The position numbers and the translations under genes were made by a program. A stretch of 64,000 nucleotides of DNA from Minisyncoccia bacterium (GTDB lineage Bacteria; Patescibacteriota; Minisyncoccia; Phycocordibacterales; UBA9973): contig JBGSSJ010000014.1 in the NCBI GenBank assembly GCA_041737125.1, positions 1,533 through 65,532 of the forward strand. Direction: 5' to 3'. Below are positions 1,444 through 39,974 of the stretch, in pieces (position 1 is the first letter of the stretch; each line of letters begins with the position of its first letter). The notes beneath the pieces were generated by a model. The model saw only the letters and a list, made by a program, of their open reading frames with translations. It made no database searches and was not told where the DNA came from.

Positions 1444-1481
1444 ATCGTAATTCTTAATTAGTAATTCGTAATTATTTTCAA

Positions 1482-6564: not shown

Positions 6565-8247
6565 ATGTCCGAGAATCGTATATGTCAGAATTGTAAGAAC
6601 GAATTCAGTATTGAGGCTGATGACTTTTCTTTCTATGAAAAGATGCAAGTTCCACCACCGACATTCTGTTCACAGTGTCGTATGGTTCGTAGGTTAGTTT
6701 TCCGTAATGAAAGAAGATTATTTAAAGTAAATAATGCTTTTACTGGGGAGAAGATATTCTCTCTATATCCAGAGCAGTCAGGAATGAAGGTCGTCACACA
6801 GGATGAGTGGTTCGGTGATTCTTGGGACCCGAAAGAATATGCTTGTGATTACGATTTCTCAGTAAATTGCTTCCAACAGCTTTTTGATCTGGACAAAAAG
6901 GTTCCTATTTATGGGCTTAATGTAAGGGGGATGATTCAGAGTGATTACTGTGCTAATGCTTCATATCTGAAAGATTGCTACTTACTGTTCAACTCAAATA
7001 CTTCCGAGAACTGTTTATATGGTAATTCTGTCGATACTTCTCGAGATTGTGTAGACAACTCACATATAGCAAAATCTGAGCGTTGCTATGAATCATTCTG
7101 GTTAAATAATTGTTATCAATGTTATTACACTATTATGTGTGTGGACTCAAGGAATATGTGGTTTTCTAGAGACTGTCTTGATTGCAGTAATTGCTTTGGT
7201 TGTACAAATCTAAGGAAAGCCTCGTATTGTATTTTCAACCAGCAATATACAAAAGAAGAATATTTAAATGAATTAAATTTAAATACTAGAAGTGGTATAG
7301 AAGAAGCAAATAAGGTCTGTATGGACTTTTGGAAGACACAACCTAATAAATTACACCAGGGTCTAATGAATACTAATTCTAATGGTGCTTATGTTTCTAA
7401 TTGCAAGAATGTCCTAGATTCATATTTAGTACGTGATAGTGAAGATATGCGCTACTGCCAATATATGCTTGTTGGCGGTAATAAGGACTGCATGGATGCC
7501 TGCGTTTGGGGACAGAAAACTGAACTCTCATACGAGACAGTGACTTGTGGTGAGAACTCTTATAATCTCAAATTCTGTTTTGACTGTTGGCCAAACGTTC
7601 GAGATTGTGAATATTCTCTACATCTGAAATCATCATCGGACTGTTTTGCTTGCGTTGGTTTAAAGAATGCACAGTACTGTATTTTGAATAAACAGTATAC
7701 GAAAGATGAATATTTTGAAATGGTAGAGAAGATAAAGAAACATATGGATGAAATGCCTTATATAGATAAAAAAGGAAGAGTATATAAATATGGGGAATTC
7801 TTTCCAATTGAATTATCTGCTTTTGGTTACAACAATACAGCAGCAAAAGACCAAGCACCGATTAATAAAGAAGAAGTGGAAGAAAATAATTATCCATGGA
7901 TAGAAGTTGATCGTGGTAACTATGATATAACACTTGATGGTAATGATATTCCAGATAATATAAATGATGTAAAGGATAGTATCTTAAATGAAGTTATAAG
8001 ATGTACGAATTGTGGATATGCACACCGTATCGTTCCCGGTGAATTGAATTTCTTAAGGAAAGAATCCTTACCTGTCCCTACTATTTGTTATGAATGCCGT
8101 CATTCTAGAAGGATTGAGAACAGGTTGAGAAATAATCTATATAATAGGAATTGTTCAAAATGCGATATTGCTATAAGTACACCTTTTCCACCAGAGAATG
8201 GAGATATAGTTTATTGTGAAAAGTGTTATCAACAAGAGGTGATATAA
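6565..8247 (+). CDS. Cys-rich repeat protein, paralog 1 of 4, with N- and C-terminal zinc-ribbon 'bookends'
   Basis: 560 aa. N-terminus CQNCKNEFSIEADDFSFYEKMQVPPPTFCSQCRMVRRL; two internal Cys-repeat modules each ending C.GCxxLxxAxYCI.N.QYTK.EY; C-terminus CTNCGY...ELNFLRKESLPVPTICYECRHSRR...VYCEKCYQQEVI. No signal peptide or TM helix. Confidence 0.6.
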   Translation: MSENRICQNCKNEFSIEADDFSFYEKMQVPPPTFCSQCRMVRRLVFRNERRLFKVNNAFTGEKIFSLYPEQSGMKVVTQDEWFGDSWDPKEYACDYDFSVNCFQQLFDLDKKVPIYGLNVRGMIQSDYCANASYLKDCYLLFNSNTSENCLYGNSVDTSRDCVDNSHIAKSERCYESFWLNNCYQCYYTIMCVDSRNMWFSRDCLDCSNCFGCTNLRKASYCIFNQQYTKEEYLNELNLNTRSGIEEANKVCMDFWKTQPNKLHQGLMNTNSNGAYVSNCKNVLDSYLVRDSEDMRYCQYMLVGGNKDCMDACVWGQKTELSYETVTCGENSYNLKFCFDCWPNVRDCEYSLHLKSSSDCFACVGLKNAQYCILNKQYTKDEYFEMVEKIKKHMDEMPYIDKKGRVYKYGEFFPIELSAFGYNNTAAKDQAPINKEEVEENNYPWIEVDRGNYDITLDGNDIPDNINDVKDSILNEVIRCTNCGYAHRIVPGELNFLRKESLPVPTICYECRHSRRIENRLRNNLYNRNCSKCDIAISTPFPPENGDIVYCEKCYQQEVI

Positions 8248-8254
8248 TAAAAGC

Positions 8255-9955
8255 ATGGAGACAAGAAACTGCCAGAACTGCAAAAATAAGTTCAAGATCG
8301 AACCAGACGATTTTTCTTTCTATAATAAGATAAAGGTACCCCCACCTACTTTCTGTCCACAATGTAGACTTATTCGAAGAATGAGTCATACAAACGAAAG
8401 AGTTCTATATAGGCGTAAATGTGATCTGACAGGTGAAAATATCCTTAGTATGTTTGGAGTAGATGCCGAATTCCCAGTATATAAATCTGAAGCTTGGTAT
8501 TCTGATGATTGGGATCCATATAAATATGGAGTAGATTATGATTTTTCTAAGTCATTTTTTGAGCAATTCAAAGAATTATTACAACGAGTACCTAGAATGG
8601 CATTAGTTAAACAAGGTCTTTCTAAGAATAGTGAATATACACACAGAGTCCATGATATGAAAGACTCTCATATGGTTTTTCGTATGTCTGGTAGTTTAGA
8701 TTCATCTTATTGTTATGTAGGTAGAAATATAACGAATTGCGTTGATTGTCTTAGTATCTGGGATAGTGAGTTGTGTTATGAATGTATAGATTGCAATAAT
8801 TGTTACAAGGTCCGATATTCTCAAGAAAGTCATGATTGCAGGGATTCTTTTTTCTTGTATGCCTGCAGAAATTGTTCAAATTGTATCGGTTGTGTAAACT
8901 TGATTAATCAAACACATTGCATTTTTAATGTTAAATACACAAAAGAGGAATACGAGAAAAAATTAAAAGAGCTTAATTTGGAAACTTATTCTGGACTAAA
9001 AGAATTTAAAGATAATTTTGAACAATTTAGAAAAAAGTTTCCATATCGTTCAAATCACTCTTTGAAGTCCAGTAATTATTCTGGTAATTGGATCGTCAGT
9101 TGTCAAAATGTTAAAGAATCATTTGGTTGTATTAATGTAAAAGATGGCAAATATTTATTATGGATTTTTAATGCACAAGATTGCATGGATCATTTCCAGT
9201 GGGGTAATGGAGCCGAGCTTATATACGAATCAGAAAACGTAGGAATTAATGTTTCAAGGGTAAAGTTTTCTTCTCAATGTTGGATGGGTGCTCATGATTT
9301 GGAATACTGTGATTCTTGCCCTGGGGCGGGGAATTGTTTTGGTTGCATAGGATTAAAGAAGGGTGAATACTCTATTTTAAATAAAAAGTATAGTAAAGAA
9401 GAATACGAAGAATTGCTACCTAAAATAAAGCAGCACATGATCGATGTACCATATGTAGATATTAAAGGATGTCTTTATTCATATGGTGAAAATTTCCCTT
9501 TTGAAATATCACCGTTTGCTTATAATGAAACAGCTGCTATCGACTTCTTCCCGATAACAAAAGAGCAGGCTTTAGAGAGTGGTTATAAATGGAAAGATAG
9601 GGAAAAAACTCAGTATAATATAACTAAAGATTTTACTGATCTCCCTGAAACAATAGCAGAAGTGGGCGATGATATAAAAAATGAAATAATATCTTGCGAG
9701 GAATCAGATGAAGAATATTCACCTGGAGCTTTTAATATTACAGACCAAGAATTAGCTTTTTATAGAAAGATGAATTTACCGCTACCACGAGCTTCTTTCT
9801 CCGTCAGACATATGCGTCGTTTCAAACAACGTCCTCCTCTAAAATTAATAAACCGACAATGTTTGAGATGTGGTATAGATGTTGAGACAATTTATACTGA
9901 AGAATTTGCCCCCATTCTTTATTGTGAATCTTGCTATCAACAAGAAGTGATATAA
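8255..9955 (+). CDS. Cys-rich repeat protein, paralog 2 of 4
   Basis: 566 aa; same architecture (CQNCKNKFKIEPDDFSFYNKIKVPPPTFCPQCR..., CFGCIGLKKGEYSILNKKYSKEEYE, ...YCESCYQQEVI); 7-nt gap from paralog 1. Confidence 0.6.
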   Translation: METRNCQNCKNKFKIEPDDFSFYNKIKVPPPTFCPQCRLIRRMSHTNERVLYRRKCDLTGENILSMFGVDAEFPVYKSEAWYSDDWDPYKYGVDYDFSKSFFEQFKELLQRVPRMALVKQGLSKNSEYTHRVHDMKDSHMVFRMSGSLDSSYCYVGRNITNCVDCLSIWDSELCYECIDCNNCYKVRYSQESHDCRDSFFLYACRNCSNCIGCVNLINQTHCIFNVKYTKEEYEKKLKELNLETYSGLKEFKDNFEQFRKKFPYRSNHSLKSSNYSGNWIVSCQNVKESFGCINVKDGKYLLWIFNAQDCMDHFQWGNGAELIYESENVGINVSRVKFSSQCWMGAHDLEYCDSCPGAGNCFGCIGLKKGEYSILNKKYSKEEYEELLPKIKQHMIDVPYVDIKGCLYSYGENFPFEISPFAYNETAAIDFFPITKEQALESGYKWKDREKTQYNITKDFTDLPETIAEVGDDIKNEIISCEESDEEYSPGAFNITDQELAFYRKMNLPLPRASFSVRHMRRFKQRPPLKLINRQCLRCGIDVETIYTEEFAPILYCESCYQQEVI

Positions 9956-9987
9956 AACAATTAAAAATTACTAATTACTAATTACGA

Positions 9988-11667
9988 ATGGAACACAAAG
10001 AAGAAAATAAAATATGTCAAAATTGTAAAAACTCATTCACAATAGAACCAGATGACTTTTCTTTCTATGAGAAAGTAAAAGTTCCACCACCTACATTCTG
10101 CCCAGAGTGTCGTAGGCAGAGAAGGCTGACATGGAGAACTGAGTTTAATTTTTATAACCGTAAATGTGATATGTGCGAGAGGGACATAATCTCTTCTTAT
10201 CCTGCTCGTTCTACACTTAAGGTGTATTGTAATAAATGTTGGTGGAGTGACAATTGGGATCCAAAATCCTATGAGAGAGATATAGACTGGGGGAAAAGCT
10301 TCTTTGATCAATTGCAGGAATTACGAGAATCTGTACCAGTACTCTCACTAATAAATGACAATAATGTAGGAAGTATAAACTGTGAGTACACTCAGAACTT
10401 TGTCCTAAGTAAGAATTGCTATATGTGTATGGTGGCTTGGCATTGGGATGACTGTATGTATTCTTGTTATGGAGCAGATGCTAGAAATTGTGTAGATTGT
10501 ATGGGGTTATTTGGCTCATGCGAGAATTGCTATGAGAGTATTTTTATTGAAAAGTGTTATGGATGTAAGTTTGTCTACCAAAGTACTTCTATGGTAAATT
10601 CTAGTTTCTGTTTTGATTGTAGGAATTGTGATGATTGTTTTATGTGCACAGGACTTAGGAATAAAAAGTTCTATTTTAAAAACAAAAAATATTCTGAAGA
10701 AGAATATAAAGAGATAGTTAGTAATTATGCTATTCATACTTATACAGGACAACAAAAGGCTATAGAAGAATTTCGTAAATTTAAATTGGAAAATATCCAC
10801 CCATATGCATTCTTGAAAAATTGTACATCTTGTACTGGTGGTTATCTTTTCAACTCAAAAAATTCTCAAAATAGTTATAATGCAAGGAACTTAGAAGACT
10901 GTTATTGTGTGGACACCGGCGATACAATGAAAGAATGTCGCGACATTTCTGTGGGTGGGGAAGCGGAGTTGTGCTATGAAGGTGTGACGCCTGATAATTC
11001 TCATGATACTGCATTTACTAATTATACCTGGAAGAGTAGTAGTTGCTATTATTGTGATTTCTGCCAATCTTGTAATGATTGTTTTGGTTGTGTATCTTTG
11101 AAAAAAGGAGAATACTGTATTTTGAACAAACAGTACTCAAAGGCTGAATATTTAGAAATAAAAAATAAATTAATTGAGCATATGAAATCAAATGGAGAGT
11201 GGGGTGAATTTTTTAGAGCCCGAGATTCTTTCTTTGGTTATAATGAAACTATAGCGAACTTCCACTTTCCACTATCAAAGGAACAAGCACTCCGGGAAGG
11301 TTATAAATGGCAAGATAGTTTACAAATTACAACCGGGAAAGAAACATTGGATATAAGTGCCATAGAGGATGATATTAATAATATAAGCGATTCCATAATT
11401 AATGAGACTATCGCTTGCACTTCTTGCTCAAGGAACTACCGTATTACTGAAAATGAGCTTCTTTTTTATCGCAAAATGAATATACCTTTACCCAGGAATT
11501 GCTTTTTCTGTAGGTTAAATAATAGATTTAATTTCCGTAATCCTTCCAAGCTCTGGCACCGCTCATGCATGAAAGAAGGTTGTAATAATGAATTCGAGAC
11601 AAGCTACGCACCAGAAAGGCCGGAGATAGTTTATTGCGAGAAATGTTATCAACAAGAAGTGATATAA
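9988..11667 (+). CDS. Cys-rich repeat protein, paralog 3 of 4
   Basis: 559 aa; MEHKEENKICQNCKNSFTIEPDDFSFYEKVKVPPPTFCPECRRQRR...; ends ...VYCEKCYQQEVI. Confidence 0.6.
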   Translation: MEHKEENKICQNCKNSFTIEPDDFSFYEKVKVPPPTFCPECRRQRRLTWRTEFNFYNRKCDMCERDIISSYPARSTLKVYCNKCWWSDNWDPKSYERDIDWGKSFFDQLQELRESVPVLSLINDNNVGSINCEYTQNFVLSKNCYMCMVAWHWDDCMYSCYGADARNCVDCMGLFGSCENCYESIFIEKCYGCKFVYQSTSMVNSSFCFDCRNCDDCFMCTGLRNKKFYFKNKKYSEEEYKEIVSNYAIHTYTGQQKAIEEFRKFKLENIHPYAFLKNCTSCTGGYLFNSKNSQNSYNARNLEDCYCVDTGDTMKECRDISVGGEAELCYEGVTPDNSHDTAFTNYTWKSSSCYYCDFCQSCNDCFGCVSLKKGEYCILNKQYSKAEYLEIKNKLIEHMKSNGEWGEFFRARDSFFGYNETIANFHFPLSKEQALREGYKWQDSLQITTGKETLDISAIEDDINNISDSIINETIACTSCSRNYRITENELLFYRKMNIPLPRNCFFCRLNNRFNFRNPSKLWHRSCMKEGCNNEFETSYAPERPEIVYCEKCYQQEVI

Positions 11668-11713
11668 AACAATTAAAAATTACTAATTACTAATTACTAA
11701 TTACTAATTACGA

Positions 11714-13414
11714 ATGGAACACAAAGAAGAAAATAAAATATGTCAAAATTGTAAAAACTCATTCACAATAGAACCAGATGACTTTTCTTTCTATGAGAAG
11801 ATAAAAGTTCCACCGCCTACTTTTTGCCCGGAGTGTAGGAGGCATAGAAGATTCGGCTGGAGGAATTATGTGAATTACTACAAACGAACTTGTGGACTTA
11901 GTGGTGAGTCTCTTATATCACTATACAGTGAAGATTCTGGCATTACCGTCTACTCTCCGAAAGCTTGGCATTCGGATAAATGGGACGCACTTGATTACGG
12001 ACAGGAGTACGATTTCTCTAAATCATTTTTTGAACAATATACACGCTTACTCTATGCTGTGCCCAAGCCAGCTATGGATACTGACGATGGATTACTAAGC
12101 ACGAATTGTATGTATACCAATGACTTTGCTATGGGGAAAGACTGTTACCTGGTGGTGAAAGCTTGGAAGCTTGAGAATGTAATGTATTCATTCTATGTGG
12201 TGAACAGTCGCGACTTGGTAGATGTGCATACTAGCTTTGGTAAGGATGAAGGTAACTATGAGACGGTTAACACAGAGCATTGTTACCAATGTAAATATGT
12301 ATATGATTCTAGGAGTTGCTCGGATTCCAGCTTCTGTTTTGACTGTAGGAATTGTGACCACACCTTTATGTGCACAGGGCTTCGTGGGAAGTCATACTAT
12401 TTTAAGAATGAGGAAGTAGGTAAAGAGAAGTATGAAGAGATTATGAAAGAATATGCACTTCATACTTACTTGGGAGTAGAGAAAGCTAAGAAAGAATTCG
12501 AACCGATGATGTTTAATCATCCCAGGAAAGCAGTTCGAATACTAAATTCTGTTGATTGTTCTGGTGACCTATTAACTAATTGTCATAATTGCAAGAATTG
12601 TTTTCTAATGCTAGATAGTGAGAATTGTCGATATGATAATTATGCTGATGGAGCTCGCGATTCGTATGATACCGATGCCGGAGGAGGATCTGAGCTTGCT
12701 TATGAGTCTGACCTGCCTGCATTCTCTGCGAATATTGTTGGTAGTTATTCTGCTTGGTATTGCCAGGACGTAAGCTATGTGAGTCATATGTATAGGAGTA
12801 AAGACTGCTTCGGGTGTGATGGATTGAAGAATGCACAATACTCTATACTCAATAAGCAATATACGAAAGAAGAATATTTCAATATGCTAGAGAAGATAAA
12901 GAAGCACATGGACGACATGCCTTATATAGATAAGATGGGGAATATGTATAAGTACGGTGACTATTTACCATTGGAATTATCATACTTCCCTTACAAAGAC
13001 ACAGAAGCGATGGAGCTATATCCGCTTGATGATAATGCCTTACTTACGAGGGGATATAAAGAGAAGAAAATAAATGAGAACTCACAAATAATGGAGACAA
13101 TAAAAGCAGAAGACTTGCCAGACTCTATTGATGATGTGTCTGATGATATATTAAGTGAGATAATTCTATCAAAAGGAGGAGAGAAGAAATATAAAATAAC
13201 AGAGCAAGAATTAAATTTCTATCGGAAGTATAGAATTCCACTACCTCGTGAATCTTTTTTCGAAAGGCATGTCCGTAGGCATAAAATGGCAAGTTCATTT
13301 AGGTTATATGAACGAGTAAGTGATAAGTCAGGTGAAGTTGTTCAAAGTTCTTATCCAATAGAAGCAAAGGAAACAGTGTGGAGTGTAGAGGAATATAGAA
13401 AAGAGTTTGAATAG
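11714..13414 (+). CDS. Cys-rich repeat protein, paralog 4 of 4, lacking the terminal CxxC ribbon
   Basis: 566 aa; the first ~42 residues and ~50 nt upstream are near-identical to paralog 3, then diverge; the C-terminus keeps ELNFYRKYRIPLPRESFFERHVRRHK but has no final CEKCYQQEVI. Confidence 0.6.
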   Translation: MEHKEENKICQNCKNSFTIEPDDFSFYEKIKVPPPTFCPECRRHRRFGWRNYVNYYKRTCGLSGESLISLYSEDSGITVYSPKAWHSDKWDALDYGQEYDFSKSFFEQYTRLLYAVPKPAMDTDDGLLSTNCMYTNDFAMGKDCYLVVKAWKLENVMYSFYVVNSRDLVDVHTSFGKDEGNYETVNTEHCYQCKYVYDSRSCSDSSFCFDCRNCDHTFMCTGLRGKSYYFKNEEVGKEKYEEIMKEYALHTYLGVEKAKKEFEPMMFNHPRKAVRILNSVDCSGDLLTNCHNCKNCFLMLDSENCRYDNYADGARDSYDTDAGGGSELAYESDLPAFSANIVGSYSAWYCQDVSYVSHMYRSKDCFGCDGLKNAQYSILNKQYTKEEYFNMLEKIKKHMDDMPYIDKMGNMYKYGDYLPLELSYFPYKDTEAMELYPLDDNALLTRGYKEKKINENSQIMETIKAEDLPDSIDDVSDDILSEIILSKGGEKKYKITEQELNFYRKYRIPLPRESFFERHVRRHKMASSFRLYERVSDKSGEVVQSSYPIEAKETVWSVEEYRKEFE

Positions 13415-14413: not shown

Positions 14414-17140
14414 ATGGAAGGATTAAATCTAAACAATGCACAGAAATTTAAAACTCCCCAAGAAGAGCTTGAGTTTCTTCGTGCGCATATAGCAGAGAAA
14501 GAGAGAGCCCTCATAGACCAAGGGCAGGAATATTCACGTGAGAACTTGGCTCATGATGTTATTTCTGAATACAAGAAATACGAACCTGAAGATGTCATGC
14601 ACAAAAGTGTGACCATACCACAGCCTGATGTAGAGAATTTCGTTCTACGGCTCCATCCAGAAACTCACGATAATAAAATGGAAGAAATGCTCGGTATATT
14701 ACTTTCGAAAGGCATATCAAGCGCACTATCTATAGTAGGCAAAATGCACAACCCGCACCTAGACGATGATTTCCATAGATTTCTAGTTCAATACCTATAC
14801 AGCACTCACAAAATTCCAGGACTCAAAGAGGGTACTCCACTATTCAAATCTCTCGATATGAAATTATTCGAGATAACACTTCCTGATCCTACAGATGACG
14901 AGAAAGATAAGAAAGGTTTAAAGGAATTACTTTCCGCCATGGAGCAATTCTATGCTGGTATGCATTCTGTCGGTGAAGGCAGACAGAATTTTAATCGTAA
15001 TCACTTCACTCTCGAGATCGCTCTGTCTGAGAACAGTGATCATTTCATATTCTACACAGCAGTACCGTCAAATAAAGCAGATTTATTCGAGAAGCAATTA
15101 CTGGGAGTTCACCCCAATGCCAAGATAATGGAAGCCCCAGATGATTACAATATTTTCGCTGATGGTTCTGCTATTGCTGGCTCATATGCCAAGCTTGCTC
15201 ATAATGAAGTCTTCCCGATCAAGACATACGATACCATAGAGCATGATCCTCTAAATATAATATTGAATGTCTTCACGAAGTTAAAAAAGTCTGGTGAGGG
15301 TGCTTCTGTGCAGTTCACAATTTGTCCGGAAGATGATGACATAATAAAAAAGTTCCATATAATGCTTGGTGATGTGAAGGAAGGCATGTCTGTAAAAACG
15401 GCTGGAAGCCTCACTCGTCAATTCGGTAAAGAAATAGAAAATATAGCAGGAGAATTATTCTTCGGTTCTTCAAAGACTAAAGAGAAGAAAGTAAATGATG
15501 AAGCCGTAGAGAAGATAACAGAGAAGATAAAGAGCACTATCATGGCTTGTAATATACGCATTGTCGCATCTGCTGAAGATTCTAATCGTGCCAAGCAAAT
15601 CCTCTCTGATCTTGAATCATCCTTCAATCAGTTCACTGAAGCCAATAGGAATGGATTTGATTTTAAGCATGTATCAGGGGCAGATTTAGATAAACTTATA
15701 CATGAGTTCTCCTACCGCACTTTCTCACAAGATTACTCCATGCCACTCAATCTCAAAGAGCTTGCTACTATATTCCACTTCCCACATGGCATAGGTTCAT
15801 CTCCACAGCTTAAGCAAGCTCGTGCTGGTATTGCTCCTGCACCTATGGAAATGGGGGTAGAAGGGACCATACTCGGTGTTAATAGTTATCGAGGTAAAGA
15901 TACAGAGATACATTTTGCTCCGGAGGATCGTATGAGACATATGTATGTTATCGGTCAGACAGGTACAGGTAAGACTACAATTATGAAGAACATGATAGCT
16001 CAAGACATAAAGGCAGGCCACGGCGTATGCTATATCGACCCACACGGCACAGATATCCAAGACATACTAAGTTACATTCCGAAAGAGCGTATTGATGATG
16101 TGATTTATTTCGATCCTGCTTATACTCCTCGCCCTATGGGGCTCAACATGCTTGAATATGATCCGAAGTATCCAGAACAGAAGACTTTCGTTGTGAATGA
16201 GCTTATGAACATATTCAACAAACTTTTCGACATGAAGACCTCTGGAGGTCCGATGTTCGAACAGTATTTCAAGAACTCAGCATTCCTGGTGATGGAGCAC
16301 CCTGAGACTGGGTCCACTTTGCTTGAGATTGGACGCGTGCTTGCCGATAAAGAATTCCGTGACATGAAGCTCTCTCACTGTAAGAACCCCATTATTACTC
16401 AATTCTGGAAGAGTGCAGAGCAGACAACAGGTGATCAATCTATTGCGAACTTCGTGCCATATATTACTTCCAAGTTCGACAACTTCATCTCGAACGATAT
16501 CATGCGCCCGGTTGTGCTCCAGCAGAATTCTGTTTTCAATTTCAGAGAGATTATGGATAATAAGAAGATATTACTTGTGAACCTTGCCAAAGGTCGCCTT
16601 GGTGATATAAATGCGAACCTCATAGGTCTCTTAATAGTGAACAAGATTCAGATGGCTGCACTTTCTCGTGTGGATATGTATGGCAAGAAGATGGAAGACT
16701 TCTTCCTCTATATAGACGAATTCCAGAATGTGACCACTGACTCTATCGAGTCCATACTATCCGAGGCACGTAAGTACCGCCTGTCACTCACTGTAGCCCA
16801 CCAGTACATATCACAGCTTGAAGATAATATAAAGAATGCAGTATTTGGTAACGTCGGCTCTATGGCAGTGTTCCGTGTCGGTGCTGAAGATGCGCAATTC
16901 CTTGAAAGTAAATACAAACCAGTTTTCAGTGCAGCAGACATTATGAAGATTGATAACTATAATGCTTATGTGTCTATGCTTATCAAAGGCCAGCCTACGA
17001 AACCTTTCAATATGGCAACACTACGACCACCAACAGGAAATATGGAAATAGTAGAGAAGATTAAAGAGCTTTCATATCTGAAGTTCGGCCGCGAGCGCTC
17101 CGAAGTAGAAGAAGAAATAATGGATAAATATAGGCAGTAA
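14414..17140 (+). CDS. FtsK/HerA/VirD4-superfamily P-loop ATPase (TraG/VirD4- or DUF87-like) with a ~480-aa N-terminal domain of unknown function
   Basis: 908 aa; Walker A GQTGTGKTT, Walker B FLYIDEFQNV, C-terminal ARKYRLSLTVAHQYISQL (the R-K...Q motif of coupling-protein/HerA ATPases); no TM segments. Confidence 0.65.
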   Translation: MEGLNLNNAQKFKTPQEELEFLRAHIAEKERALIDQGQEYSRENLAHDVISEYKKYEPEDVMHKSVTIPQPDVENFVLRLHPETHDNKMEEMLGILLSKGISSALSIVGKMHNPHLDDDFHRFLVQYLYSTHKIPGLKEGTPLFKSLDMKLFEITLPDPTDDEKDKKGLKELLSAMEQFYAGMHSVGEGRQNFNRNHFTLEIALSENSDHFIFYTAVPSNKADLFEKQLLGVHPNAKIMEAPDDYNIFADGSAIAGSYAKLAHNEVFPIKTYDTIEHDPLNIILNVFTKLKKSGEGASVQFTICPEDDDIIKKFHIMLGDVKEGMSVKTAGSLTRQFGKEIENIAGELFFGSSKTKEKKVNDEAVEKITEKIKSTIMACNIRIVASAEDSNRAKQILSDLESSFNQFTEANRNGFDFKHVSGADLDKLIHEFSYRTFSQDYSMPLNLKELATIFHFPHGIGSSPQLKQARAGIAPAPMEMGVEGTILGVNSYRGKDTEIHFAPEDRMRHMYVIGQTGTGKTTIMKNMIAQDIKAGHGVCYIDPHGTDIQDILSYIPKERIDDVIYFDPAYTPRPMGLNMLEYDPKYPEQKTFVVNELMNIFNKLFDMKTSGGPMFEQYFKNSAFLVMEHPETGSTLLEIGRVLADKEFRDMKLSHCKNPIITQFWKSAEQTTGDQSIANFVPYITSKFDNFISNDIMRPVVLQQNSVFNFREIMDNKKILLVNLAKGRLGDINANLIGLLIVNKIQMAALSRVDMYGKKMEDFFLYIDEFQNVTTDSIESILSEARKYRLSLTVAHQYISQLEDNIKNAVFGNVGSMAVFRVGAEDAQFLESKYKPVFSAADIMKIDNYNAYVSMLIKGQPTKPFNMATLRPPTGNMEIVEKIKELSYLKFGRERSEVEEEIMDKYRQ

Positions 17141-25105: not shown

Positions 25106-25549
25106 ATGACACTTTTGATAGACAACAGGAAAGCACACTTTAATTATGAGGTTGTAAGCCGATACGAAGCAGGTATTGAGCTTTTGGGCTTGGAAGTGAA
25201 GTCTATCAAGAACGGCCGAGCGATACTTGCTGGAGCATTTGCTATAGTGCGCGGAGGTGAAGTCTATCTTATGAATATGCAAATCCCACCTTACCAAGTA
25301 GGGAACACCCCGCTTGATTATGACCCGACTCGTACTCGCAAGCTCTTGCTAAGTAGGAAACAGATTAATGAAATAGCCCCGAATGGTGACATGAAGAGTT
25401 TGACGCTAGTACCATTATCATTGTATAGTAAAGGGCGCTTGATAAAAGTAGAACTCGCTGTCGTAAAAGGTAAGAAGAATTACGACAAGAGGGAGACCAT
25501 AAAGAAGCGGGAGACAGATAGGGAGATAGATCGCGAGTATAAGAGATAA
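25106..25549 (+). CDS. smpB: SsrA-binding protein SmpB
   Basis: 147 aa; KAHFNYEV..., GIELLGLEVKSIK, DPTRTRKLLL motifs; lies immediately upstream of the tmRNA. Confidence 0.9.
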   Translation: MTLLIDNRKAHFNYEVVSRYEAGIELLGLEVKSIKNGRAILAGAFAIVRGGEVYLMNMQIPPYQVGNTPLDYDPTRTRKLLLSRKQINEIAPNGDMKSLTLVPLSLYSKGRLIKVELAVVKGKKNYDKRETIKKRETDREIDREYKR

Positions 25550-25651
25550 TTACAAATGACGAGTTACGAATTACGAATGGAGCCCACTTGGATTTCATTA
25601 TTAATTAGTAATTTGAAATTCGTAATTAAAATTTTCTTTGAAAATTTATAT

Positions 25652-26044
25652 GGGACTGACGGGCTTCGACGAAGGATCGTCCTCATAAATATGCATGTAA
25701 AGTACCCAGGAATCTTTTAAAACTTCTTGGAAAAGACTAAGTGCAAACAAAGTCGCTTCAATTAAATCACCTTACTCTTTTGGGTTTGGTAATTTAGTTC
25801 CTGCTGTCGCCTAAACGGTCACACAGGTGTCTCTCTTATCGACATCCGATACATAGGGGAGGCATAATTTATCGGGTTACGAATCTATCACTGCTTGAGT
25901 TAGATTCCGACAATGAAGAGCTCGGTGTTCACTTTTTTTGTTTGTTCTCTAGAGTGAATATTTAAACCAAATGAACATACTACACATGTAGATTTATTTA
26001 TGAACATCTTTTGCATCTGGGTTCAACTCCCAGCAGTTCCACCA
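25652..26044 (+). ncRNA. ssrA: tmRNA (SsrA)
   Basis: 5' GGGACUG pairs with 3' CAGUUCC including a G3-U wobble (Ala identity); GGGTTCAACTCCC T-arm, discriminator A, CCA at 26042-26044; tag ORF GCA...TAA (25743-25814) encodes ANKVASIKSPYSFGFGNLVPAVA*; adjacent to smpB. Confidence 0.85.
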
Positions 26045-28974: not shown

Positions 28975-29048
28975 CCACCCTTAGCTCAGTTGGTTAGAGC
29001 ACAGAGCTTATACCTCTGGGGTCCTTGGTTCGAATCCAAGAGGGTGGA
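28975..29048 (+). tRNA. tRNA-Ile with anticodon UAU
   Basis: Cloverleaf CCACCCT/AGGGTGG acceptor, GCTC-AGTTGGTTA-GAGC D-arm (Ile-like), anticodon arm CAGAG-CTTATAC-CTCTG giving 5'-TAT-3', TTCGAAT T-loop, discriminator A; no CCA encoded. Confidence 0.8.
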
Positions 29049-29121
29049 CATTAAAAAGCTTTATAATCTGTTAAAACATTAATTGATTGATTATCAATTA
29101 ATAATGTAATAATATATAGCT

Positions 29122-39872: not shown

Positions 39873-39888
39873 ATTTATACTATTATTG

Positions 39889-39974
39889 CGGAGGCGGTGA
39901 GATTCGAACTCACGGTCCTTTAAGGGGACGACGGTTTAGTAAACCGTTGATTTAAACCACTCATCCACGCCTCC
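39889..39974 (-). tRNA. Type II (long variable arm) Ser-like tRNA with apparent anticodon ACU
   Basis: Minus-strand sense GGAGGCG-TG-GAT...ATC-A-ACGGT-TTACTAA-ACCGT-[17-nt variable arm CGTCCCCTTAAAGGACC]-GTGAG-TTCGAAT-CTCAC-CGCCTCC-G; perfect 7-bp acceptor, G73, U33/A37 in place; the loop reads 5'-ACT-3'. Confidence 0.7.

What the first reader, a model, noticed from the sequence alone, without database searches (positions are those of the whole stretch)
9931..11835. 190-nt junction repeat homogenising paralogs 3 and 4, carrying a copy-number-variable TTACTAA heptamer tract just upstream of the start codon
A block runs from the last ~25 nt of one gene (..tatcaacaagaagtgatataa) through the spacer and the first ~130 nt of the next gene. 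It is essentially identical at the paralog 2/3 junction (about 9931-10120) and the paralog 3/4 junction (about 11645-11835), whereas the rest of paralogs 3 and 4 is only distantly similar. This is a signature of unequal crossing-over or gene conversion. The only length difference is the heptamer tract, (TTACTAA)2-TTACGAA versus (TTACTAA)4-TTACGAA, which ends 0-2 nt before the ATG. Variable short tandem repeats in this position are a classic slipped-strand phase- or expression-variation device, so this points to a contingency-type locus.
Basis: seen in the sequence. Interest (0 to 1): 0.6.

Follow-up and report, generated by a model that had tools for sequence, protein, structure and literature searches.

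The report
Gene-conversion patch with heptamer spacer
Two neighbouring copies of an uncharacterised cysteine-rich gene in a Patescibacteria genome have had their start regions made identical by a short gene-conversion event, and the spacer in front of them, built of 7-base repeats, differs by two units; this is ordinary concerted evolution plus repeat slippage, with no evidence for an on/off expression switch.

Summary
Window 9935-10073 and 11647-11799 are identical over 139 nt (21 nt of gene end, the whole spacer, the first 86 nt of the next gene). The only difference is a 14-nt indel, two TTACTAA units. The next ~50 nt are only at family-background similarity, so the tract is about 140 nt, not 190.

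All synonymous sites in the first 29 codons are identical, against about 45% identical codons elsewhere. Each gene body groups with orthologues in other genomes. This indicates short-patch gene conversion. It is a family trait: in 153 arrayed homologues the 5' segment is closest to a same-locus paralogue 32 times (2 expected), against 1 of 123 for a conserved internal control segment.

The contingency-locus reading is not supported:
- The tract has only 3-5 units.
- It holds no -10-like hexamer and is unstructured as RNA.
- It lies between cistrons in a genome with almost no Shine-Dalgarno sites and mostly leaderless promoters.
- The same AATTANN heptamers precede rpsH and flank the tmRNA gene here, and precede rplE in a relative.
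- Paralog 4 is a conserved single-copy resident of the ribosomal-protein operon in relatives.

No population data could be obtained. A second genome (L022) shows the same junction repeat with a two-unit heptamer difference, so the tracts are indel-prone.

The parts
6565..8247 (+). Paralog 1 (560 aa, 39 Cys) of a Patescibacteria-specific Cys-rich zinc-ribbon protein family.
   Evidence: ORF list; protein alignment; C-terminal zf_Tbcl_2 / TIGR04272 hit; TACAAT box 7 nt before the ATG.
8243..8248 (+). TATAAT box formed by the stop-codon region of paralog 1, 6 nt before the ATG of paralog 2. This is the genome's usual leaderless-promoter geometry and is the intact state of the junction.
   Evidence: 6/6 match at spacing 6. 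23 of 58 genes carry a box matching at least 5/6 that ends 5-9 nt before the ATG.
8255..9955 (+). Paralog 2 (566 aa, 32 Cys). Its last 21 nt form the left edge of junction copy A.
   Evidence: Closest orthologue is L079 3432 (75% amino-acid identity).
9935..10073 (+). Junction block copy A (139 nt): 21 nt of the paralog 2 end, a 32-nt spacer, and the first 86 nt of paralog 3.
   Evidence: no substitutions against copy B.
9951..9956 (+). TATAAA, the displaced and degraded counterpart of the paralog 1/2 junction's -10 box. It now lies 31 nt from the ATG.
9959..9986 (+). Heptamer tract, 4 units in the AATTANN register (AATTAAA AATTACT AATTACT AATTACG). This equals (TTACTAA)2-TTACGAA at 9968-9988.
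9988..11667 (+). Paralog 3 (559 aa, 45 Cys).
   Evidence: Closest orthologue is P0002/L081 (74-75% amino-acid identity), whose N-terminus is METRNCQNCKKEF. AF2 model pLDDT 82.7.
10074..10124 (+). Zone after copy A that is 82-88% identical to 11800-11850. This is family-level conservation of the N-terminal zinc ribbon, not part of the converted tract.
11647..11799 (+). Junction block copy B (153 nt): 21 nt of the paralog 3 end, a 46-nt spacer, and the first 86 nt of paralog 4.
11671..11712 (+). Heptamer tract, 6 units in the AATTANN register. This equals (TTACTAA)4-TTACGAA at 11680-11714.
11714..13414 (+). Paralog 4 (566 aa, only 22 Cys, C-terminus ..EEYRKEFE). It belongs to a conserved subfamily that is the sole family copy between the amino-acid kinase gene and map in relatives.
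1446..1473 (+). Heptamer tract of the same class in the opposite orientation (CGTAATT CTTAATT AGTAATT CGTAATT). It lies between rpsN and rpsH, 8 nt before the rpsH ATG.
25547..25628 (+). Two inverted arrays of the same heptamers (TTACGAA x2 plus degenerate units / TTCGTAA-type). They fold into a long hairpin just upstream of the tmRNA gene.
   Evidence: -26.2 kcal/mol, z = -4.9.

Best explanation
The setting is a tandem array of four diverged paralogs (about 40% amino-acid identity). They belong to a large, uncharacterised, Patescibacteria-specific family of about 560-aa cysteine-rich zinc-ribbon proteins. The array sits in the ribosomal-protein operon between secY-adk-(amino-acid kinase) and map.

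A short-patch gene conversion of about 140 nt copied one junction onto the other. The patch comprises the intergenic spacer and the first 29 codons. It is anchored on the family's two most conserved nucleotide stretches: the C-terminal CYQQEVI-stop and the N-terminal zinc ribbon. This is shown by the sequence. The direction is not resolved.

The spacer consists entirely of AATTANN heptamers. These are a short-tandem-repeat class scattered through intergenic and inter-cistronic spacers of this genome and its relatives. Since or during the conversion one copy changed by two units through slipped-strand mispairing. That step is inferred from 0 substitutions against one 14-nt indel.

Functional reading (inferred): in this genome, which almost lacks Shine-Dalgarno sites and mostly uses leaderless promoters, the heptamer insertion separates the stop-codon-embedded -10 box from the ATG. 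That box is intact at the paralog 1/2 junction. Paralogs 3 and 4 are therefore most likely translated as internal cistrons from an unstructured, G-poor, AU-rich spacer, like rpsH. Tract length may tune expression slightly, but it is not an on/off switch.
For: Conversion
- 139 nt with no substitutions, including non-coding and synonymous sites.
- Identical-codon fraction is 0.86 in the first 45 codons of paralogs 3 and 4, against 0.42-0.67 for other pairs and 0.43 in the rest of paralogs 3 and 4.
- The gene bodies' nearest relatives are in other genomes.
- Beyond CDS nt 86, identity between paralogs 3 and 4 falls to what each shares with its own orthologues.

Family trait
- The window pair ranks first of 172 paralog pairs.
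- The 5' segment's nearest neighbour is a same-locus paralog in 32 of 153 genes (2 expected), against 1 of 123 for a conserved internal control segment.
- Similar homogenised junctions occur in L003 and L022.

Tract instability
- The same 2-unit difference separates two otherwise near-identical junctions in L022.
- Period 7 is the only short period with several perfect tracts of at least 3 units in 1.2 Mb of Patescibacteria loci.

General spacer element
- The same heptamers precede rpsH and flank the tmRNA gene, precede rplE in L204, and occur in L016, L044, L067, L068 and L073.

Expression context
- 2 of 59 genes have an SD-like motif.
- -10 boxes peak 5-8 nt before the ATG.
- Paralog 1 has TACAAT at 7 nt and paralog 2 has TATAAT at 6 nt. 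Paralogs 3 and 4 have none at 5-9 nt, and TATAAA is displaced to 31 and 45 nt.
- The junction RNAs are unstructured, z about 0.
Against: - No reads were available, so the phasing of the tract lengths and the two junction-to-body joins rests on a single assembly.
- The only independent contig (L203) begins inside the repeat and says nothing about the tract.
- The direction of conversion is unresolved. 'KNSF' resembles paralog 4 orthologues, but the MEHKEENKI extension is absent from the closest orthologues of both genes.
- No transcription start sites are known. The leaderless and internal-cistron reading is inferred from motif geometry only.
- Heptamer tracts are about 3-fold more frequent at starts of family genes than at other gene starts (8 of 177 against 9 of 631, p = 0.018). 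This leaves room for a family-specific role.
Confidence: 0.7

Rival explanations
1. Contingency (phase- or expression-variable) locus. The heptamer tract would be a hypermutable SSR whose unit number sets promoter-to-start spacing or 5'-UTR length, and so switches or grades the expression of individual paralogs.
For: - The tract differs by 2 units between otherwise identical copies, and again in L022.
- Heptamer tracts are somewhat enriched at starts of family genes and inside family genes.
- L023 carries a 10.7-unit (AAACATG)n tract running into the start codon.
- A known precedent is a transcribed heptamer SSR upstream of hmw1A.
Against: - The tract has only 3-5 units, whereas hmw has at least 11 in nature.
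- It does not affect the reading frame.
- It has no -10 or -35 context and no RNA structure.
- The same tracts precede rpsH, rplE and tmRNA or tRNA genes.
- Paralog 4 is a conserved syntenic operon gene that has no tract in relatives.
- The N-terminus looks cytoplasmic by eye, with no obvious signal peptide; no predictor was run.
- No population data are available.
Confidence: 0.1
2. Assembly artefact. The assembler would have made a chimeric join at conserved k-mers shared by the paralogs (for example GATGACTTTTCTTTCTATGA), or used one real junction twice, with tract variants coming from strain heterogeneity.
For: - The source is a metagenome-assembled genome, the only one holding these proteins.
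- The right edge of the perfect tract lies in a segment that is conserved in all paralogs.
- The Logan contig of paralog 4 breaks inside the repeat.
Against: - The two copies differ in tract length and have different left flanks within 33 nt of the tract. Single reads, or k-mers of 55 or more, can therefore phase flank and tract (inference).
- The distance from the distinguishing unit to the first paralog 3/4 mismatch is about 105 nt, within one 150-nt read (inference).
- Gene order with paralog 4 next to map matches relatives.
- Comparable junction repeats exist in independent assemblies, L003 and L022.
Confidence: 0.07
3. No conversion. The block would be a functional cis-regulatory cassette (a protein-binding heptamer array plus a 5' coding element) kept identical by purifying selection, or inserted twice as a unit.
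For: - Heptamer arrays recur at gene starts in several genomes.
- The N-terminal extension type ME[YH]K.ENK recurs across subfamilies.
- L073 carries a 'solo' junction remnant.
Against: - Selection would not hold all 29 third-codon positions and every spacer base identical while paralogs 1 and 2 lack the cassette.
- The homologous junction in L079 has no heptamers.
- The tract sequences differ between genomes.
Confidence: 0.08

Closest known systems
Concerted evolution by short-patch gene conversion in bacterial tandem or duplicated genes (for example tufA/tufB, or opa and pil cassettes; from general knowledge)
   Same: A patch of perfect identity that includes silent and non-coding sites, inside otherwise diverged paralogs. 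It is bounded by conserved stretches that can act as homology anchors. It recurs across the family.
   Different: The patch is confined to the junction (spacer plus about 29 codons) of an uncharacterised Patescibacteria family. The donor and the recombination machinery are not identified.
Haemophilus influenzae hmw1A/hmw2A (ATCTTTC)n heptanucleotide SSR in the 5'-UTR (PMC12721329; PMC8262952)
   Same: A 7-nt unit in an intergenic position upstream of the start codon of duplicated genes, with copy number differing between copies.
   Different: The hmw tracts have at least 11 units. They form a long RNase III-processed hairpin with a G-rich arm and show measured population heterogeneity. Here there are 3-5 units, no structure, no mapped promoter and no population data.
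Cyanobacterial STRR heptanucleotide repeats (general knowledge; heptamer repeats in Nostoc are mentioned in bioRxiv 10.1101/2022.06.06.494920, listed and not read)
   Same: Tandem heptamers dispersed in intergenic regions, in both orientations, sometimes as inverted arrays that form hairpins.
   Different: The organism and the unit sequences differ (AATTANN). The number per genome is unknown. The function of STRRs is itself unsettled.
Mycoplasma gallisepticum vlhA (GAA)n upstream repeats (general knowledge)
   Same: A multigene family in a reduced genome, with a short tandem repeat upstream of each copy.
   Different: The vlhA genes encode surface lipoproteins with a demonstrated length-dependent ON state. 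The proteins here look cytoplasmic, and no length dependence is known.

Membership tests
Gene conversion / concerted evolution between paralogs | A tract of near-identity that includes synonymous and non-coding sites, flanked by diverged sequence. | tested here: met
   139 nt with no substitutions, against 49% nucleotide identity in the rest of the genes. Identical-codon fraction 0.86 against about 0.45.
Gene conversion / concerted evolution between paralogs | Phylogenetic discordance: the tract groups paralogs of one genome, while the gene bodies group with orthologues elsewhere. | tested here: met
   Family-wide: 32 of 153 against 1 of 123 for the control segment.
Gene conversion / concerted evolution between paralogs | An identifiable donor and recipient. 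| tested here: inconclusive
   'KNSF' resembles paralog 4 orthologues, but the 9-aa N-terminal extension is absent from the nearest orthologues of both genes.
SSR-driven contingency (phase-variable) locus | A hypermutable tract long enough for frequent slippage. | tested here: not met
   2 and 4 perfect TTACTAA units plus one variant unit, 21-35 bp. The known heptamer switch has at least 11 units.
SSR-driven contingency (phase-variable) locus | The tract is placed so that unit changes alter the reading frame, the -35/-10 spacing or a regulatory RNA structure. | tested here: not met
   The tract is outside the CDS. There is no promoter-like site at the junctions. No hexamer in the tract has A2 and T6, and the nearest -10-like box is 31 or 45 nt away. 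The RNA is unstructured.
SSR-driven contingency (phase-variable) locus | Tract-length heterogeneity within populations or strains. | not testable with these tools
   The proteins occur in one NCBI assembly plus one Logan contig that starts inside the repeat. The metagenome pattern scan returned no relative of this locus.
SSR-driven contingency (phase-variable) locus | The gene product is of a class under fluctuating selection (surface, restriction-modification, receptor). | tested here: inconclusive
   The function is unknown and there are no Pfam, PADLOC or PDB matches. The N-terminus is polar. Paralog 4 is a conserved syntenic gene of the ribosomal-protein operon.
STRR-like dispersed heptanucleotide repeats | Tandem 7-nt units at several intergenic sites per genome, in both orientations, sometimes as inverted arrays. 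| tested here: met
   Window 1446-1473, 9959-9986, 11671-11712 and 25547-25628; relatives.
STRR-like dispersed heptanucleotide repeats | Membership of the named cyanobacterial STRR families (their specific unit sequences and a cyanobacterial host). | tested here: not met
   The units are AATTANN / TTACKAA, and the host is a Patescibacteria genome. This is a resemblance in kind only.

The most novel reading that the evidence does not exclude
Start-proximal heptamer tracts, carried along by recurrent 5'-junction gene conversion, could form a tunable expression system for a multi-copy zinc-ribbon protein family in Patescibacteria. Unit number would set the length of an SD-less leader or inter-cistronic spacer, and so the output of each paralog. 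This would be the first contingency-like locus described in the Candidate Phyla Radiation. My literature searches listed no paper linking Patescibacteria with phase variation or simple sequence repeats.
Probability: 0.1. Interest if true: 0.65.

Novelty: new member of a known kind. Interest (0 to 1): 0.35.

Why it matters
The finding itself is a clean but ordinary case of concerted evolution plus microsatellite slippage.

Its value is what it exposes about the family. This family has more than 6,400 members, is specific to Patescibacteria and is uncharacterised. It usually lies in tandem arrays. Its 5' junctions are repeatedly homogenised within genomes, and it attracts 7-nt repeats at start codons and in one internal loop.

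If tract length turned out to matter for translation in these genomes, which lack Shine-Dalgarno sites and mostly use leaderless mRNAs, it would give a handle on gene regulation in organisms that cannot yet be manipulated genetically.

Tried and rejected
- **Population data.** Exact-protein look-ups for paralogs 2 and 3 found nothing. The only independent contig (L203, SRR28170474) starts at window 11785, inside the repeat. A search with the body of paralog 3 found no further fragments. P0205, a protein seen on many contigs, gave collapsed identical places. L205-L208 are 100% identical and carry no tract in the overlapping region.
- **Metagenome scan.** None was related to the window.
- **Promoter and terminator scan.** Nothing was found at the junctions.
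- **The tract as a -10 box.** Rejected, because no hexamer in either orientation has both A2 and T6 (reasoned).
- **A single AATTAC motif as a pervasive signal.** It is only about 2-fold enriched in intergenic DNA, which AT-richness explains.
- **Recent unequal crossover.** Rejected, because it would leave two near-identical gene bodies, and none exist.
- **Literature.** No paper links heptamer repeats or phase variation with Patescibacteria.
Full report
**Observation**

The window carries four tandem, same-strand ORFs:

| Paralog | Coordinates | Length |
|---|---|---|
| 1 | 6565-8247 | 560 aa |
| 2 | 8255-9955 | 566 aa |
| 3 | 9988-11667 | 559 aa |
| 4 | 11714-13414 | 566 aa |

They are 39-43% identical in amino acids.

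- 9935-10073 equals 11647-11799 over 139 nt without a single substitution.
- That covers the last 21 nt of the upstream gene (TATCAACAAGAAGTGATATAA), the entire spacer and the first 86 nt of the downstream gene.
- There is one 14-nt indel: (TTACTAA)2-TTACGAA against (TTACTAA)4-TTACGAA. TRF gives 3.4 and 5.4 copies.
- In the AATTANN register the whole spacer is AAC + 4 or 6 heptamers + A.
- The repeat finder recovers the same families. The first 29 nt of the shared CDS occur exactly twice in the window, with 0 expected.

**Extent of the tract**

After CDS nt 86 identity falls to 82-88% for about 50 nt, and then to about 50%. I compared the same segments with orthologues from other genomes.

| Segment (nt from the CQNC motif) | Paralog 3 vs paralog 4 | Each gene vs its own orthologues |
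|---|---|---|
| 0-62 | 97% | 76-84% |
| 62-113 | 82% | 80-82% |

The homogenised tract therefore ends at about CDS nt 86. It is about 140 nt long, not about 190. The left edge cannot be placed more precisely than the last 21 nt of the upstream gene. That stretch (CYQQEVI-stop) is conserved at the ends of paralogs 1, 2 and 3 anyway.

**What produced it**

- Among residues conserved between paralogs 3 and 4, the fraction encoded by the identical codon is 0.86 in the first 45 codons and 1.0 in the first 29.
- The same fraction is 0.43 in the rest of these two genes, and 0.42-0.67 for every other paralog pair in the same N-terminal region.
- The gene bodies have their nearest relatives in other genomes. 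Paralog 3 is 74-75% identical to P0002/L081. Paralog 4 is 78-79% identical to P0122-P0127.

Perfect identity at silent and non-coding sites, combined with discordance between tract and body, is the signature of short-patch gene conversion. A recent unequal crossover would leave two near-identical gene bodies, and there are none.

The direction is unresolved. 'CQNCKNSF' looks like the paralog 4 orthologues. The nine-residue extension MEHKEENKI is absent from the nearest orthologues of both genes, yet it is common elsewhere in both subfamilies.

**A family trait**

The family is large. More than 6,400 homologues were scored, all from Patescibacteria/Paceibacteria-type MAGs, all 'hypothetical'. 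It is usually arrayed: 54 of 78 loci hold 2-6 copies.

- Among 172 within-locus paralog pairs, the window's pair has the best junction alignment. L003, L082, L076 and L022 follow (alignments).
- A nearest-neighbour test shows that the 5' 105-nt segment is closest to a same-locus paralog in 32 of 153 genes, with 2 expected.
- The same holds for only 1 of 153 protein bodies.
- It holds for only 1 of 123 copies of an equally conserved internal nucleotide segment.

Concerted evolution is therefore specific to the 5' end of these genes. The window shows its most recent example.

**The heptamers**

The tract is not peculiar to these junctions.

- In the window the same units stand in the opposite orientation 8 nt before rpsH (1446-1473).
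- They also form two inverted arrays just upstream of the tmRNA gene (25547-25628). These fold into a strong hairpin (-26.2 kcal/mol, z = -4.9).
- A relative with a 78%-identical paralog 4 orthologue has such a tract before rplE instead (L204 1874-1906).
- AATTANN tracts also occur in L016, L022, L044 (before a tRNA gene), L067, L068 and L073.
- In 1.2 Mb of Patescibacteria loci, period 7 is the only period between 5 and 9 with several perfect tracts of at least 3 units: 5, against 0-1 for the others.
- (TTACGAA)n and (TTACTAA)n tracts are abundant in metagenome contigs of GC 0.30-0.67. They often occur as inverted pairs followed by a T-run.

Locus L022 is an independent replicate of the finding. 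Two non-adjacent junctions are near-identical for about 70 nt past the ATG and differ by exactly two heptamers. The ATG lies inside the last unit. The homologous junction in L079, about 73% identical in DNA, has a 45-nt spacer with no heptamers. The tracts are thus gained, lost and resized on short evolutionary time scales. This supports slippage-proneness. It does not show a regulatory switch.

**Expression context**

- Only 2 of 59 genes in the window have an SD-like tetramer at -20 to -4.
- Hexamers matching TATAAT at 5/6 or better, with A2 and T6, pile up 5-8 nt before the ATG. 23 of 58 genes have one at 5-9 nt.
- This is the geometry of leaderless mRNAs.

| Gene | Nearest -10-like box | Distance to ATG |
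|---|---|---|
| Paralog 1 | TACAAT | 7 nt |
| Paralog 2 | TATAAT (perfect; built from paralog 1's stop-codon region, gtgaTATAATaaaagcATG) | 6 nt |
| Paralog 3 | TATAAA (degraded) | 31 nt |
| Paralog 4 | TATAAA (degraded) | 45 nt |

- Paralogs 3 and 4 have no box at the usual distance. The counterpart box is pushed away by the heptamer spacer.
- No hexamer within the heptamers, in either orientation, has both A2 and T6.
- The generic promoter and terminator scan finds nothing at the junctions.
- The junction RNAs are unstructured, z about 0.

My inference is that paralogs 3 and 4 are translated as internal cistrons from an AU-rich, G-poor spacer, like rpsH. Tract length could at most modulate this.

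**Why not a contingency locus**

- The known heptamer switch, H. influenzae hmw1A, has at least 11 units in nature. Its tract is transcribed into a long RNase III-processed hairpin and shows measured population heterogeneity (PMC12721329).
- Here the tracts have 3-5 units. They have no structure and no promoter context, and they lie outside the frame.
- In relatives, paralog 4 is the sole family copy at this position: secY, adk, amino-acid kinase, paralog 4, map. It has its own leaderless-type promoter there and no heptamers.
- It forms a conserved, Cys-poor subfamily with 22 Cys against 45 in paralog 3. That profile fits a housekeeping-like gene rather than a gene under fluctuating selection.

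Some points remain in favour of the switch idea:

- Heptamer tracts are about 3-fold enriched at starts of family genes: 8 of 177 against 9 of 631, p = 0.018, a count that includes the two tracts that prompted the test.
- They are about 5-fold enriched inside family genes.
- L023 has a 10.7-unit (AAACATG)n tract running into the start codon.

Population-level tract variation, the decisive test, could not be examined.

**Artefact check**

- The two copies have different left flanks within 33 nt of the tract, and different tract lengths.
- The first base that distinguishes paralog 3 from paralog 4 lies about 105 nt from the distinguishing heptamer, within one short read.
- Gene order agrees with relatives.
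- Analogous junction repeats occur in unrelated assemblies.

I rate an artefact as unlikely, but it cannot be excluded without reads.

**The protein family**

- No Pfam domain matches except a C-terminal treble-clef zinc finger in paralog 1.
- There is no PADLOC hit, no relative in the PDB by sequence, and no Foldseek match for a confident AF2 model (pLDDT 82.7, pTM 0.85).
- Each protein contains two homologous Cys-rich halves (family D5).
- A TraG/VirD4/HerA-like ATPase lies downstream, here and in relatives.

**Verdict**

Gene conversion is supported (about 0.85). A contingency switch is not supported (about 0.1). This is a new member of a known kind of event, with moderate interest that comes mainly from the family-wide pattern.

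Noticed in passing
whole window (59 gene starts): There is almost no Shine-Dalgarno signal: 2 of 59 genes. TATAAT-like boxes end 5-9 nt before the ATG in 23 of 58 genes. The organism therefore appears to use mostly leaderless mRNAs, with -10 boxes often overlapping the stop codon of the preceding gene.
   Followed up: partly
window 11714-13414; L204 8001-9689; L205 8001-9689: Paralog 4 belongs to a conserved Cys-poor subfamily with C-terminus ..EEYKKEFE and 55-79% identical orthologues. In relatives it is the single family copy embedded in the ribosomal-protein operon between the amino-acid kinase gene and map. Paralogs 1-3 are lineage-specific additions upstream of it.
   Followed up: partly
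window 25540-25651: Inverted arrays of TTACGAA-type heptamers form an 82-nt hairpin (-26.2 kcal/mol, z = -4.9) followed by a T-rich run. It lies between an upstream ORF and the tmRNA gene (25652-26044) and is possibly a terminator.
   Followed up: partly
L083-L202 (metagenome contigs): (TTACGAA)n and (TTACTAA)n tracts of 3-17 units are widespread in contigs of GC 0.30-0.67. They often occur as inverted pairs with a loop and a T-run, and often lie next to other heptamer repeats (for example ATCCGCA, GGTAATG, CCAGTAT). The organisms and the function were not determined.
   Followed up: no
L023 7965-8039: A 10.7-unit (AAACATG/AAACAAG) tract runs into the 5' end of a family gene. It creates ATGs in several frames and a repeated MKQETRN/MKQETKN N-terminus. 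Of the loci examined, this one looks most like a true frame-dependent SSR.
   Followed up: partly
L072 9250-9280; L021 11757-11788; L043 11029-11057; L026 9214-9235: Heptamer tracts with different unit sequences lie inside family genes at the same variable loop, between 'MPYI' and 'YKYGEFF'. Paralog 3 of the window lacks this loop. Period-7 tracts inside genes number 9 in 308 kb of family genes against 4 in 674 kb of other genes.
   Followed up: partly
L073 110-240: A 'solo' junction. The stop codon of a family gene is followed by five AATAATT/AAGAATT heptamers, then ATGGAATACAAACCAGAAAAC.., which opens a truncated 16-codon remnant. The real next gene starts about 100 nt further on. This looks like a scar of recombination at a junction.
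   Followed up: no
L022 3730-4010 vs 7233-7500: This is an independent replicate of the finding in another Patescibacteria genome (AH-259-L07). Two junctions are near-identical and differ by two heptamers (ATTAAGA ATTATGA). The ATG lies inside the last unit.
   Followed up: yes
window 14414-17140: A 908-aa TraG/VirD4/HerA-like ATPase (DUF87, TrwB_AAD_bind; PADLOC mad8 at 2e-14) lies downstream of the array. It is conserved near family genes in L082, L204 and L205. In L082 it carries the same zf_Tbcl_2 finger as the family.
   Followed up: no
window 28975-29049 and 39888-39974: ARAGORN calls a tRNA-Ile with anticodon TAT and a tRNA-Ser with anticodon ACT. The tRNA-Ser(ACT) lies near a tRNA-Ser(GCT). 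Both anticodons are unusual for bacteria.
   Followed up: no
window 7225-7269 vs 7675-7719 (and the equivalent positions in the other paralogs): Each paralog contains an internal duplication: two Cys-rich beta-modules, each ending in a 'YCI(L/F)NKQYTKEEY' helix. The AF2 model is confident (pLDDT 82.7), but Foldseek finds no match in the PDB.
   Followed up: partly
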